This document shows, piece after piece, positions 28,082 to 63,623 of a stretch of DNA of 64,000 nt. The stretch lies in the NCBI RefSeq assembly GCF_009914755.1, contig NC_060935.1. One strand, given 5' to 3'. This stretch comes from the human T2T-CHM13v2.0 reference genome, Homo sapiens. Below the pieces are notes generated by a model that was given only the letters and a program-made list of their open reading frames with translations, did not search any database and was not told where the DNA came from. How positions within the stretch are numbered: position 1 is the first letter of the stretch; every line of letters begins with the position of its first letter. The translations under genes were made by a program, and so were the position numbers.

Positions 28082-28091
28082 ATGGAAAGTG
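28082..28091 (+). CDS. POU2AF2: POU2AF2 (OCA-T1/C11orf53) coding exon 1: M-E-S plus the first base of V
   Basis: ccagaATGGAAAGTG|gtaagt. Strong Kozak context (A at -3, G at +4) and a consensus donor at 28092. Phase 1 joins in frame to exon 2 (G|TC = Val) and matches the recalled N-terminus MESVPGDYSK. Confidence 0.88.
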
Positions 28092-28909
28092 GTAAGTCAA
28101 CATCAATTATTATAATTTAAAAAAACTTTAATCCTAATTTTTATTTTTGATAACACAAAGTCATAACATAAAACAAAGGTTAAGGAGAAATCTCCTAACT
28201 CTGGCATAGAACATATAAAAATATAAAACACAGATCAAGGACTACCTATTTAGAACTCTTGGTAACATTTTCCTAATTCTAGTTACATTTAATTACTAAT
28301 TGTTTGATTTTGTTTTGCTTTATAGAGTTTACAGAGATATTCTGAAAGATCAACTCAGTTGAACATTATTTTCATAAAATAAGTACTTGAATATCAAAGC
28401 CTTCTTTTCCAATATATAGTGAAATTTTATTTTAGCAAATTTCAGTAAGCTCTCAACTATAGAGAAAGTGCAGAAGAAGAATTCACATTCATATAGAACC
28501 TGAAACATCTTTTATTCATGCATCTTGTTTTAGGCTTTTAAGGCTAAGAAGTAAGGTCATTCTATTTACATATGATAAGGAAGAGTCTGGGCTGTTATTT
28601 CATGAATCTAACTAAATATAGATCTTTCCCCGGATGTTCATCCTGAGATACAAATGTGAATAGTCAACAGAGAGCAAAGCCCACCTGTTCGCGAACAAAT
28701 TTAAGATTGAAAAAGTCAGCACTTTAAATGTTAACAAATGATGACAGAGGGAGCATTTCAAAAATGCCTTGTAAAGTACCTTAAAAGAAAAATTAATATT
28801 TTTTAAATGCTGCAATTCTTCAAAGTCTGATCTCAAAAGGTAAGAAGATAGAAAGAGCTCTAAGAGCATCTATCTTCTGCAGCATAAAATTGGTTATTAG
28901 CTGTGACAA

Positions 28910-29585
28910 TTTTTAAAAAATAATAAATTGTATTGTGTATACTTGAGATTCACAGCATGTTATTATATAGATACAGATAGTAAAGATGGTTACTATAGTG
29001 AAACAGATTAATATATCTATCATGTCACTTAGTTACTTTTTTGTGACAAGAGCAGCTAAAATCTACTTATTTAACAAAAATCCCTAAAGCACTGCAATGT
29101 TATTAACTGTAGTCCTTATGTTGTACATTATATCTCTAGAGTTTCATCCTACACACTGGCTACTTTGTATTTTCTGATCTACATCTCATTTCCTCCCCCA
29201 CCTCAATCCTACCTATGGTGACCAGTTTTATTCTTTATATACTTGACCTTTTTTTTCCCTAGATTCCACATTCAAGTGAGATCATGCAATATTTTTCTTC
29301 CCTGTCTGGCTTGTTTCACTTAGCATAATGTCCTCCACTTCCAGCCAAGTTGTGGCACATGGCAGGATCTCCTTCTTTTTAAGTCTGAATTTTATATATT
29401 CATACACACACACACAGAGAGAGAGAGAGAGAGAGAGAGAGAGAGAGACCGTATTTCTTTATTCATCCATCAACAGATGGCTGTTTAGGTTGTCTCTGTA
29501 TCTTGGCTATTGTGAACAATGCTGCAATGAACATGGGAGTGCAGCTATTTTTACAAGGTGTTAATTACAGCTTCTTTGGGTATTG
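28910..29585 (-). mobile_element. L1MA-type 3' end in intron 1
   Basis: agattccacattcaagtgagatcatgcaatatt ... gcaatgaacatgggagtgcag, with an internal (GA)n. Confidence 0.85.
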
Positions 29586-29733
29586 GATTCAGCTATGAAG
29601 GTACATTGGGAGGAGTTTGTGGATACCTACAGTGTGGGCAAATCAAACTTCAACAAAATCCTAATATGTTAACTGATTTGACCTAGCATCTTTAAAAGTT
29701 AGTCTTTATTTCAAGTTTAAGATTTCATAAATA

Positions 29734-30021
29734 GGCCGAGCGTGGTGGTTCATGCCTGTAATCCCAGCACTTTCGGAGGCTGAGGTGGGTGGATCATGAG
29801 GTCAAGAGATCGAAACCATCCTGGCCAACATGGTGAAACCCCCATCTCTACTAAAAATACAAAAATTAGCTTGGCGTGGTGGCGGGCGCCTATAGTACCA
29901 GCTACTCGGGAGGCTGAGGCAGGAGAATCACTTGAACCCAGGAGGTGGAGGTTGCAGTGAGCTGAGATCGTGCCACTGCACTCCAGCCTGGTGACAGAGC
30001 AAGACTCCATCTTAAAAAAAA
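29734..30021 (+). mobile_element. Alu (AluSc-like)
   Basis: Sense Alu with gaggtcaagagatcga. Confidence 0.93.
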
Positions 30022-30106
30022 GATTTCATCGTGTGTAGTATTTTCTGCTTAATAATATTTTGAATATTTCAAGATTAGTTTATGAGCTTGGAGACTATAA
30101 GTGGCC

Positions 30107-30358
30107 TTTTTTTTTTTTTTTTTTTTAGACGGAGTCTCGCTTTGTCGCTCAGGCTGGAGTGCAGTGGTGTGGCGCGATCTCCGCTCACTGCAAGCTCCGC
30201 CTCCCGAATTCACGCCATTCTCCTGCCTCAGCCTCCCGAGTAGTTGGGTCTACAGGCGCCCGCCACCACGCCCAACTGATTTTTTTGTATTTTTTTAGTG
30301 GAGACAGGGTTTCACCGTGTTAGCCAGGATGGTCTCGATCTCCTGACCTTGTGATCCG
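30107..30358 (-). mobile_element. 5'-truncated AluY-like element
   Basis: Antisense with gcaagctccgcctcc. TSD gtggcctttt. Confidence 0.92.
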
Positions 30359-60564: not shown

Positions 60565-60932
60565 ATTACAGATTGCAATTGCACGTTTGCATTCCCCTAA
60601 AATTCAAATGTTGAGGTGCTAATCCCCTGTGTGATGGCATTTGGAGAAGGGGCCTTTGGGAGGTAATTAGATCTTGCAGGTGAATCCCTCTAATGGGATT
60701 AGTGTCCTTATAAGAAGAGACACCAGAGAGATGATCTCTCTCTCTGTCTCTCTCTCTCTCTCTCTCTCTCTCTCTCAGCCATGTGAACACACAGTGAGAA
60801 GCCAGCTTTCTGCAAACCAGAAAGAGGGCCCGCACTAAAAACCACACCTAGATCTCAGACTTCCAGTCTCCTGAACTGTGAGAAATAAATTTTTGTTATT
60901 TAAGCCATGCAGTCTATGGTATTTTTCATAGG
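60565..60932 (+). mobile_element. MST/MLT1A-like MaLR LTR with (TC)n
   Basis: ggggcctttgggaggtaattag ... cagacttccagtctcctgaactgtgagaaataaat. Confidence 0.8.
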
Positions 60933-61506
60933 CTTGTCTTCAGATATTTGAAGGGCTGTGTATGCAAGAAGTGTTAAACTTATTCTATAAAGACCAAAGG
61001 GATTAGAACTAGAAAGTTATTCTTTCCAGCCAACTTTGTAATTGGTAAAAGTTCCTAAAGAAGAAATGGGTTTCCTCAGAGGGTGCTAAGTTCTCTGTGC
61101 CTGGATATTAGATGCACCTGGTGTTAGTAATATGGAGAGAATGTAATCATTGAATGAGACTCTATAAAATTTCTTCCAACTCTTGAGAGTCTATAGAATC
61201 ATTAAAGTCACTGCAAAAGAGCTCGGATTCAATGAACTGGATGTTGAGGATTCTTAACTTCCACAGAAGCTACACCCTCTCCACTTACTTTGCTCCAGGA
61301 CATCTCGGAGCCATGATTTGCGTATTTTAAGACTCTACACGCCTAGATACTCTTCCTTCAGAGGTCAGCTTAGGCACTGCATCCTGCAAGATGTGTCTCC
61401 CACCCCATTCTTGACACCAGTTTAGGTGCCCGCATCACCCCATCTTTCCCTGACCCTGCCACTTCTCATACTACACCGAATATTCTGTTTTGTCATCAAT
61501 CACCCC

Positions 61507-62300
61507 TGTATTGGTGTCTTAGGGCTGCAGTAACAAGTTACCACAAATGGGATGACTTACAGCAACAGAAATGTATCATCTCATAGATAGCTCTAGAGGC
61601 TAGAAGTCCAAAATCAAGGTGTCAGCAGGGCCATGCTCCCTCTGGAGCCTCTGGGGAGAATCCTTCCTTGCCTCTTCCTAGCTGGCAGTTGTCACTGGTG
61701 ATCCTCGATGTTCCTTGGCTTGAGGTTGTATCACTCAAACTGCTGCCTTTGTCTTCACATGACCTTGTCCCATCTGCATCTGTGTCTTTGTGCGTCCCTC
61801 TCCTCTTCCTATTAGGACATCAGTCACATGAGATTTAGGACCCACCCTAATTTAATATGACCTCATCTTAATTTAAGTAGTTACATCTTTAACAGCCCTA
61901 TTAGCAAATACCGTCACATTCACAGGTATCAGGGATTAAGGTATCAATATAACTTTGGGTGGCTTATGCCTGAAATTCCAGCAATTTGGGAGGCCGAAAC
62001 AGGTAGATCACCTGAGGTCAGGAGTTCGAGACCAGCCTGGCCAACACAGTGAAACCCATCTCTACTAAAAATGCAAAAAGTAGCCAGGTGTGGTGGTGCG
62101 TGCCTGTAATCCCAGCTACTCAGGAGACTGAGGCAGGAGAATCACTTGAATCCGGGAGGTGGAAGTTGCAGTGAGCCGAGATCGTGCCATTGCACTATAG
62201 CCTGGGTGAGAGAGTGAGACTCCATCTCAAAAAAAAAAAAAAAAAAATATATATATATATATATCTTTTGGAGGGGGCACATAATGCAACCCACCACATT
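61507..62300 (-). mobile_element. MLT1B/C-like LTR interrupted by a sense Alu (61958-62247)
   Basis: agggctgcagtaacaagttaccacaaa ... ggctagaagtccaaaatcaaggtgtcagcaggg. The Alu has an A/(TA)n tail. Confidence 0.8.
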
Positions 62301-62539
62301 CCCCAACCTCTCCCTGCTCTCTAGCCTGTGGGTTCTTTGAAGATTGTGTCTTCATTCCACATATTTTTCTTACGTCTATTATGAACTACACCCTGTTCTA
62401 GGCACTGAGGGCACATCACAGTCAAGGTCCCTACAGTTGGTGGAGCTTCTTCCTCCACATGGATTCAGACAGTAAACATTGAAGTGGCCCTTCAGTGCTG
62501 AAGCCAAACACTAAGTGCATGTATGCACATACACACATA

Positions 62540-63251
62540 CAGTAGGCGCCCCTTAGCCATGGTTTCCCTTTCTGAGGTTTCAGCTACTCATGGTTAACTG
62601 CAGTCTGAACATACTAAATGCGAAATTCCAGAAATAAACAATTTCTAGATCTTAAATGGCATGCCTTTCTCAGTGGTGTGATGAAATTTCATTCAGTCCC
62701 ACTCTGTGCTGCCCAGGACTTGAATCTTACCTTTGTCCAGCCAATCCACACTGTCTACACCACCTGCCCGTTAGTGTCTCAGTAGCCGACTCAGTGATTG
62801 GATCACCTGTCTCTGTATGGCAGTGCTTGTGTTCAAGTCACCCTTATTGTATTTCACAATGGCCCGAAAGCACAAGAGTAGTGACACTGGCAATTTAGAT
62901 ATGCCAAAGAGAAGCCGGAATGTGCTTCCTTTAAATGAAAAAGTAAACGTTCTCAACTTAATAAGGAAAGAAAAAAAATGTATGCTGAGGTCAGACATTG
63001 GTATGGTAAGAACAAATCTTTTGTCTGTGAAATTGTGAAGAAGGCGAAAGAAATTCATGCGAGTTTTGCTGTTGCACCTCGAACTGCAAAACTGTGGCCA
63101 CAATGCATGATAAATTCTTAGCTAAGATGGAAAAGGCATTGAGTTTGTGGGTGGAGGACATGATGGCAATCAGGTGTGGTGCTATCCTCAGTTTTAGGAA
63201 CCCACTGGGGAGTCTTGGAACATATCCCTCGTGGGTAAGGGGAGGCTACTG
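62540..63251 (+). mobile_element. MER44C/D (Tigger7 deletion derivative)
   Basis: TIRs cagtaggcgcccctta ... taaggggaggctactg. ORF 62817 DMPKRSRNVLPLNEKVNVLNLIRKEKK is a transposase N-terminal HTH remnant. Confidence 0.85.
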
Positions 63252-63580
63252 GATATGCGTATATATAGTCACTTAATATATATTGGATGAGGGAATGTTA
63301 ACTGGAACAGTAGAAGATGAAGGATAAATTACTACATTTCATCCAGCCAGTGCTTTCTGGCATGTTTATCAAAATGTAAAAGTGTGGTTGCTCTTTGTCC
63401 CTTGTAAAACTTTGTTCTATGGTACTTGAATTCTTATTCTCAGTTGACCTGAGGGTCAACCCAACTCCCCAGATAATACTTCTGAATATCATAAAACCAA
63501 GCTTATAAGGTGTATTCCTAATTTTTATTAAATTCAAACTTACAACTAAAGAAAACACTTGAATTCTGTTTACCTTCCAG

Positions 63581-63623
63581 GGCAGCGTCAGTTCCTCTCA
63601 GTCTCCATTTGTGCAGATGCCAG
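63581..63623 (+). CDS. POU2AF2: POU2AF2 coding exon 3 (43 nt): GSVSSSQSPFVQMP(G); the gene continues past the window
   Basis: ctgtttaccttccag|GGCAGC...ATGCCAG|gtgagt. Phase 0 matches exons 1+2 (120 nt = 40 codons). Contains the internal ATG at 63617. Confidence 0.9.

What the first reader, a model, noticed from the sequence alone, without database searches (positions are those of the whole stretch)
28082..63623. OCA-domain coactivator gene (POU2AF2/OCA-T1) built from tiny exons over 35 kb
Seen in the sequence: three exons with 10, 110 and 43 coding nt and consensus GT-AG junctions splice into one open frame containing RVYQGVRVKHTVKDLLAEKR. Established: this is the OCA peptide of OCA-B/POU2AF1 (YQGVRVKEPVKELLRRKR), which clamps onto POU2F-octamer complexes. 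OCA-T1 is the known partner of POU2F3 in tuft cells and tuft-like small-cell lung cancer, and sits in a cluster with POU2AF3/COLCA2 and POU2AF1. The motif is translated only if the 10-nt coding exon 10 kb upstream is used, so ORF scans miss the true N-terminus. This is the main biological system in the window, but it is already described rather than new.
Basis: partly seen in the sequence, partly recalled or inferred. Interest (0 to 1): 0.85.

Follow-up and report, generated by a model that had tools for sequence, protein, structure and literature searches.

The report
First coding exons of human POU2AF2
These are the first three coding exons of the known human gene POU2AF2 (OCA-T1), whose short peptide clamps onto POU2F3 bound to DNA in tuft cells; the finding is correct but already described.

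Summary
The three exons (28082-28091, 38212-38321, 63581-63623) have GT-AG junctions and splice into one open frame of 54 codons plus 1 nt. The exon-2 peptide is 35 of 35 identical to PDB chain 9pfp_B, named POU2AF2. It also matches the solved POU2AF3 and OCA-B peptides and Pfam PF09310. Contact residue numbers in the 2025 crystal and mutational-scan paper fit only if the ATG of the 10-nt exon is used.

A six-frame search of the whole assembly finds three OCA exons, all in this chr11 cluster. All three paralogues put the ATG in a first exon with 10, 7 or 16 coding nt, then a phase-1 intron. The OCA peptide is therefore lost when another start site is used. This is reported in mouse and fits the human alternative first exon at 50233-50293.

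One addition: two perfect octamers lie at -85 and -54 of the RefSeq start site. Neither paralogue promoter has any. This suggests direct control by the POU2F-OCA complex, which I could not test.

Verdict: already known, low interest.

The parts
27868..27875 (+). Perfect octamer ATGCAAAT, sense strand, -85 to -78 of the RefSeq start site 27953
27899..27906 (-). Perfect octamer ATGCAAAT on the minus strand, -54 to -47 of the start site; 23-bp spacer, 31 bp start to start from the first
27953..28091 (+). POU2AF2 exon 1: 129-nt 5' UTR without an upstream ATG, then 10 coding nt (28082-28091); donor gtaagt
   Evidence: exon ends from the hub's RefSeq table
28092..38211 (+). Intron 1, 10,120 bp, phase 1; separates the ATG from the OCA peptide
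38212..38321 (+). Exon 2, 110 nt: the whole OCA peptide (residues 4 to 40 of the protein); acceptor AAG (A at -3), donor gtaagt, ends in phase 0
50233..50293 (+). Alternative first exon of the second RefSeq transcript: GG, not AG, lies upstream and the donor is gtaaga. Its first ATG (50240) reads 18 codons in frame into exon 3, giving a product without the OCA peptide
   Evidence: exon ends from the hub's table
63581..63623 (+). Exon 3, 43 nt, residues 41 to 54 plus 1 nt; acceptor ttccag, donor gtgagt; holds the first in-frame ATG (residue 53) downstream of the OCA peptide

Best explanation
The span holds the promoter and the first three coding exons of human POU2AF2, which encodes OCA-T1. Transcription from about 27953 gives an mRNA whose start codon sits 10 nt before the first donor. 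Splicing across a 10.1-kb phase-1 intron joins it to exon 2, which encodes the whole OCA peptide. [quoted passage not shown] Its short helix (L25, L26, R30) docks into a cleft of the POU-specific domain of POU2F3. The coactivator is therefore recruited only to POU2F3 that is bound to an octamer with A at position 5. Exon 3 and the exons beyond the window encode the rest of the 288-residue protein. Shown here: the exons, the frame, identity to the crystallised chain, family membership, and the gene structure shared with the paralogues. Taken from papers: binding, function and cell type. Inferred: that the exon 1 to exon 2 junction is the one used in human cells.
For: Exons, junctions and open frame. 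PDB: 9pfp_B (POU2AF2) is 35/35 identical at E 1e-18; 9pfn_B (POU2AF3) E 4.6e-5; 1cqt_I (OCA-B) E 1.4e-3. Pfam PF09310 E 8e-5. The residue numbers in PMC12755459, sections 8 and 9 (Y13, Q14-G15-V16, R17, V18, K19, H20, V22, K23, D24, L25, L26, A27, E28, K29, R30), fall on exactly these residues of the spliced peptide when counted from the exon-1 ATG. The crystallised construct 6-46 has 41 residues and starts at the G that is residue 6. The 12 columns invariant among the three paralogues are Y13 Q14 G15 V16 R17 V18 K19 V22 K23 L25 L26 R30, which include the residues the paper reports as contacts or as intolerant to substitution. There are only 3 OCA exons in the genome, all in the cluster. All three genes share a phase-1 intron before the OCA exon and a phase-0 donor after it. 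Mouse 5' RACE recovered the full-length exon 1 to exon 2 form (passages).
Against: No RNA evidence for the human junctions was available to me. Pfam scored exon 2 alone at 22.5 bits, below the curated cut-off of 25.7; the query was only 36 residues against a 249-position model. The exon-2 acceptor is AAG, not the usual YAG. The original description (Wu et al. 2022, Nature) is not held, so I know it only from citations in other papers.
Confidence: 0.97

Rival explanations
1. The locus has a second, regulated output without the OCA peptide. Transcripts that start at the alternative first exon 50233-50293, or inside exon 2 as in mouse, skip the ATG exon and the motif. They would encode a protein that cannot dock on POU2F3. 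This complements the main reading rather than excluding it.
For: The hub's table lists a second transcript with exon 50233-50293. GG, not AG, lies upstream of it and a gtaaga donor follows, so it is a first exon. Its first ATG at 50240 reads 18 codons in frame into exon 3. The CRC-risk preprint 10.1101/2023.08.24.554659 speaks of a POU2AF2 transcript without the POU2F interaction domain, with lower expression in colon (passages). In mouse crypts a short isoform starting 26 bp into exon 2 lacks the motif, and its share tracks low tuft-cell numbers (passages). For a human transcript starting inside exon 2, the first in-frame ATG is residue 53 in exon 3.
Against: Expression is reported as low. 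I saw no protein evidence. I could not see whether the second RefSeq model is curated or predicted. The mouse short form uses a different start site.
Confidence: 0.5
2. The similarity of exon 2 to OCA peptides is a chance open frame or a dead pseudo-exon.
For: Pfam is below its curated cut-off, and the open frame in contiguous DNA has no start codon.
Against: There is 35/35 identity to a crystallised chain named POU2AF2. Consensus splice sites lie on both sides. There are only 3 matches in 3.1 Gb, all in annotated paralogues. Intron phases are shared.
Confidence: 0.01
3. The two octamers before the start site are chance, or serve only ubiquitous OCT1, and have nothing to do with POU2F3/OCA-T1 feedback.
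For: The window as a whole is not enriched: 6 octamers against 4.44 expected, and 28 of 100 shuffles reach 6. Octamers are also bound by OCT1 (general knowledge). The lymphoma preprint credits TCF3 and SET1A for promoter activity and never uses the word octamer. No conservation test was possible.
Against: Of 1000 first-order Markov simulations of the window, 0 put 2 or more octamers, and 7 put at least 1, in the 100 bp before 27953; 16 of 1000 had any two octamers within 40 bp. Both sites carry the A at position 5 that OCA peptides need. Neither paralogue has an octamer, or even a 7-mer, within 1 kb of its start site.
Confidence: 0.45

Closest known systems
POU2AF2 / OCA-T1 / C11orf53 (human; PDB 9pfp chain B)
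   Same: It is this gene. The exon-2 peptide is 35/35 identical to the crystallised chain, the residue numbering fits, and the position matches the hub's RefSeq table.
   Different: Nothing differs in the coding part. The window holds only exons 1 to 3 of 5.
POU2AF3 / OCA-T2 / COLCA2 (PDB 9pfn, 9pfo)
   Same: It has the same 12 invariant OCA residues, lies in the same cluster about 44 kb downstream, and has the same phase-1 intron before and phase-0 donor after the OCA exon.
   Different: It has 7 rather than 10 coding nt in exon 1, a 1,938-bp rather than 10,120-bp intron 1, and a 95-nt OCA exon. There is no octamer within 1 kb of its RefSeq start site. The paper reports a helix of three turns against two.
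POU2AF1 / OCA-B / OBF-1 (PDB 1cqt chain I)
   Same: It has the same OCA core and the same intron phases, and lies on the opposite strand of the same cluster.
   Different: It has 16 coding nt in exon 1, a 20,242-bp intron 1 and a 131-nt OCA exon. It partners OCT1/OCT2 in B cells. There is no octamer within 1 kb of its start site.

Membership tests
POU2AF (OCA) coactivator family | OCA peptide core: Y-Q-G-V-R-V-K, then V-K, L-L and a closing R at fixed spacing | tested here: met
   12 invariant columns across the three genomic OCA exons, and pairwise matches to solved chains
POU2AF (OCA) coactivator family | Pfam PF09310 (PD-C2-AF1) at its curated cut-off | tested here: inconclusive
   E 8e-5 and 22.5 bits against a cut-off of 25.7. 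Only the 36 residues of exon 2 were scanned, matching positions 9-35 of a 249-position model
POU2AF2 itself | Identity to the protein deposited and published under that name | tested here: met
   9pfp_B is 35/35 identical at E 1e-18. The construct 6-46 and the contact residue numbers fit
POU2AF (OCA) coactivator family | Position in the chr11 cluster POU2AF2 - POU2AF3 - POU2AF1 | tested here: met
   The 3 of 3 genome matches lie within about 103 kb on contig C11; gene names come from the hub's table
POU2AF (OCA) coactivator family | Shared gene structure: ATG in a first exon with few coding nt, phase-1 intron, OCA exon ending in phase 0 | tested here: met
   10, 7 and 16 coding nt in exon 1; OCA exons of 110, 95 and 131 nt. 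That this defines the family is my own inference, not a published criterion that I saw
POU2AF (OCA) coactivator family | DNA-dependent binding to a POU2F factor on an octamer with A at position 5 | not testable with these tools
   Published crystal structure, NanoBRET and deep mutational scan; nothing was run here
POU2AF2 itself | Use of the exon 1 to exon 2 and exon 2 to exon 3 junctions in RNA | not testable with these tools
   No RNA data. Indirect support comes from the residue numbering and mouse 5' RACE
POU2AF2 itself | Remainder of the 288-residue protein (exons 4 and 5) | not tested
   It lies beyond window position 64000. The length of 288 residues is from PMC9534498

The most novel reading that the evidence does not exclude
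The POU2AF2 core promoter is wired to the complex that its product completes. Two perfect octamers with A at position 5, convergent and 31 bp apart (about three helical turns), lie at -85 and -54 of the start site in unique, CpG-poor DNA. The promoters of POU2AF3 and POU2AF1 have none. POU2F3 with OCA-T1 would then activate POU2AF2 directly, a positive loop that could lock in tuft-cell fate. OCT2 with OCA-B or OCA-T1 could switch the gene on in the B-cell lymphomas where it is reported to be expressed. I found no text describing these sites. Published ChIP tracks, which I could not see, may already show a peak there.
Probability: 0.45. Interest if true: 0.35.

Novelty: already known. Interest (0 to 1): 0.15.

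Why it matters
OCA-T1 is needed for tuft-cell formation and for the survival of POU2F3-positive small-cell lung cancer. Its OCA peptide is being studied as a drug target. The gene also sits at the 11q23.1 colorectal-cancer risk locus. None of this is new. The window does show plainly that the whole POU2F3-binding function hangs on one 110-nt exon, reached only from a start codon 10 kb upstream. Start-site choice therefore decides whether the product is a coactivator at all. If the promoter octamers work, they would add a simple feedback loop to that picture.

Tried and rejected
- Wu et al. 2022 (Nature, PMC9419707), the first description, is not held.
- Rfam at gathering scores found 0 families in the window.
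- Octamers are not enriched in the window as a whole: 6 against 4.44 expected, and 28 of 100 shuffles reach 6. Only the pair at the promoter stands out.
- The built-in control of the genome pattern search, the pattern read backwards, gave 3 against 238. It contains CpG, so I do not use it as a null.
- Text searches for promoter octamers or autoregulation of POU2AF2 found no statement on them. 'Autoregulation' appears only for the POU2F3 locus.
- Supplementary Table 2 of PMC9534498 compares NCI-H526 cells given a non-targeting guide with cells given two guides labelled C3 and C4, which I take to target C11orf53. It lists POU2F3 at logFC -3.46 and C11orf53 at -3.53. The fall of C11orf53 mRNA may simply be decay of the edited transcript, so it does not test feedback. 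The file was cut when stored, and the POU2F3-knockout table was not reached.
- An E-box search (TCF3 is reported at the mouse promoter) found CACCTG at -384 and +729 and no CAGCTG or CAGGTG within 1 kb. I did not follow this up.
- No fold or complex job was sent, because a crystal structure exists.
- Conservation of the promoter in other vertebrates could not be tested: no vertebrate genome other than this assembly is on hand.
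Full report
**Observation**

I read the three stretches directly and spliced them by coordinates in a script.
- Exon 1's coding part, 28082-28091, is an ATG plus 7 nt and is followed by gtaagt.
- Exon 2, 38212-38321 (110 nt), follows ..ttaag and precedes gtaagt.
- Exon 3, 63581-63623 (43 nt), follows ..ttccag and precedes gtgagt.

Together they give 163 nt, which is 54 codons without a stop plus one base. 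Only one frame of exon 2 is open. A TAA at 38208-38210 closes that frame just upstream, and exon 2 holds no in-frame ATG. The start codon has A at -3 and G at +4, and the 129-nt leader has no upstream ATG.

**Identity**

- Exon 2 alone matches PDB chain 9pfp_B, deposited as POU domain class 2-associating factor 2, at 35 of 35 residues and E 1e-18.
- It also matches 9pfn_B (POU2AF3, E 4.6e-5) and 1cqt_I (OCA-B, E 1.4e-3).
- Pfam PF09310 matches at E 8e-5 and 22.5 bits. This is under the curated 25.7, which is expected for 36 residues against a 249-position model.
- A six-frame search of the 3.1-Gb assembly that holds the window gives 3 matches in all: this exon, one at window position 82721-82801 (+) inside POU2AF3, and one at 140948-141025 (-) inside POU2AF1 (gene spans from the hub's table).

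**Start codon**

The paper behind 9pfp (PMC12755459, Cell Rep 2025; I read the outline, sections 8 and 9 in full, and some passages) names these residues: Y13, Q14-G15-V16, R17, V18, K19, H20, V22, K23, D24, L25, L26, A27, E28, K29 and R30. Counted from the exon-1 ATG, the spliced peptide has exactly these residues at these numbers. The crystallised construct 6-46 has 41 residues, and the chain begins at the G that is residue 6. This supports the 10-nt coding exon as the true start without any RNA data, though it rests on the database numbering the authors used.

**Mechanism (from the paper, not tested here)**

[quoted passage not shown] - V22 and K23 bond L235 and L237 of the POU-specific domain.
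- L25 and L26 pack against L188 and L191, and R30 pairs with E192.
- In the mutational scan, L25, L26 and R30 tolerated no change, K19 tolerated only R, and H20 and K29 were permissive.

The 12 columns invariant among the three genomic OCA exons are Y13 Q14 G15 V16 R17 V18 K19 V22 K23 L25 L26 R30 (numbering shifted by 4). These are the same set.

**Gene structure across the family**

I located exon 1 and the OCA exon of both paralogues in the assembly.

| Gene | Coding nt in exon 1 | Exon-1 donor | Intron 1 | OCA exon |
|---|---|---|---|---|
| POU2AF2 | 10 | gtaagt | 10,120 bp | 110 nt |
| POU2AF3 | 7 | gtaact | 1,938 bp | 95 nt |
| POU2AF1 | 16 | gtaagt | 20,242 bp | 131 nt |

In all three genes intron 1 is phase 1 and the OCA exon ends in phase 0. 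The residue numbers the paper gives for OCA-T2 (V11, V17, K18, L20, L21, R24, R25) fit the POU2AF3 splice I derived. This is what tandem duplication of one ancestral gene would leave. It also means that in every member the binding peptide is separated from its start codon by an intron.

**Isoforms without the peptide**

- The hub lists an exon at 50233-50293 from a second transcript.
- GG, not AG, lies upstream of it and gtaaga follows, so it is a first exon.
- Its first ATG (50240) reads 18 codons in frame into exon 3. The product would replace residues 1-40, and with them the OCA peptide.
- If the exon were instead inserted between exons 2 and 3, it would bring a stop.
- The CRC-risk preprint 10.1101/2023.08.24.554659 (passages) already mentions a POU2AF2 transcript lacking the POU2F interaction domain, with lower expression in colon.
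- The mouse preprint 10.1101/2022.10.19.512785 (passages) reports a short Pou2af2 isoform starting 26 bp into exon 2. It lacks the motif, and its share tracks low tuft-cell numbers in Balb mice.
- In human, a transcript starting inside exon 2 would find its first in-frame ATG at residue 53 in exon 3.

This layer is therefore in print as well.

**Promoter**

- While reading upstream of exon 1, I saw two perfect octamers: ATGCAAAT at 27868-27875 (+) and at 27899-27906 (-). That is -85 and -54 of the RefSeq start site, convergent, with a 23-bp spacer.
- The window as a whole is not enriched: 6 against 4.44 expected, and 28 of 100 shuffles reach 6.
- The placement is unusual. In 1000 first-order Markov simulations of the window, 16 had any two octamers within 40 bp, 7 had at least one in the 100 bp before 27953, and 0 had two there.
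- Genome-wide, the convergent pair with a 10-40 bp spacer has 238 matches, some nested. By my arithmetic that is about 8e-6 expected per given 100-bp promoter.
- The 341 bp around the sites occur once in the genome.
- The region is AT-rich and CpG-poor: GC 0.36 and CpG observed/expected 0.08 over 27753-28153.
- Neither POU2AF3 nor POU2AF1 has an octamer, or even the 7-mer, within 1 kb of its RefSeq start site.
- Both sites have the A at position 5 that OCA peptides need.

The natural reading is direct activation by POU2F3/OCA-T1, or by OCT2 with an OCA protein in B-cell lymphoma, where POU2AF2 is reported to be expressed. I could not test binding or conservation.

The held literature gave no text on these sites. 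It credits TCF3 and SET1A at the promoter in lymphoma, and reports loss of accessibility over the locus after SWI/SNF inhibition. Figures are not held, and Wu et al. 2022 is not held, so a published ChIP peak there may exist. Supplementary Table 2 of PMC9534498 lists POU2F3 at logFC -3.46 and C11orf53 at -3.53 in cells given two guides that I take to target C11orf53. The first value fits mutual dependence. The second is confounded by decay of the edited mRNA.

**Verdict**

Novelty is 'already known' and interest is low. The one item I did not find described is the octamer pair in the core promoter. I give it 0.45 odds of being functional, with modest interest if true.

Noticed in passing
window 27868-27906: Two perfect convergent octamers (ATGCAAAT) lie at -85 and -54 of the POU2AF2 start site, 31 bp apart. 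Neither paralogue has one within 1 kb of its start site. In 1000 simulations, none placed two in that 100 bp.
   Followed up: partly
window 50233-50293: An alternative first exon (GG upstream, gtaaga donor) has a first ATG that reads in frame into exon 3. It replaces the OCA peptide with 18 other residues, including a basic run.
   Followed up: partly
window 38209-38211: The acceptor of the OCA exon is AAG (A at -3) behind a modest pyrimidine tract. It looks weaker than the exon-3 acceptor ttccag. Whether this matters for isoform choice is open.
   Followed up: no
L002, L003, L004, L005 (window-equivalent 80771, 82716-82810, 140924-141054, 161312): All three OCA genes keep the ATG in a first exon with 7 to 16 coding nt, followed by a phase-1 intron of 1.9 to 20 kb. 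The OCA exon ends in phase 0 in each.
   Followed up: yes
window 46716-47237: A long GAAA/AGGA microsatellite, about 110 copies of a 4-nt unit, lies in intron 2.
   Followed up: no
window 22283-22523: An AT-rich TATACATA-type tandem array lies 5.4 kb upstream of the promoter.
   Followed up: no
window 34614, 35907, 42170, 44723: Four further perfect octamers lie in introns 1 and 2. The count is within chance for the window, and I could not tell whether any lies in an enhancer.
   Followed up: no
window 27569 and 28682 (-384 and +729 of the start site): CACCTG E-boxes. A preprint reports TCF3 at the mouse Pou2af2 promoter.
   Followed up: no
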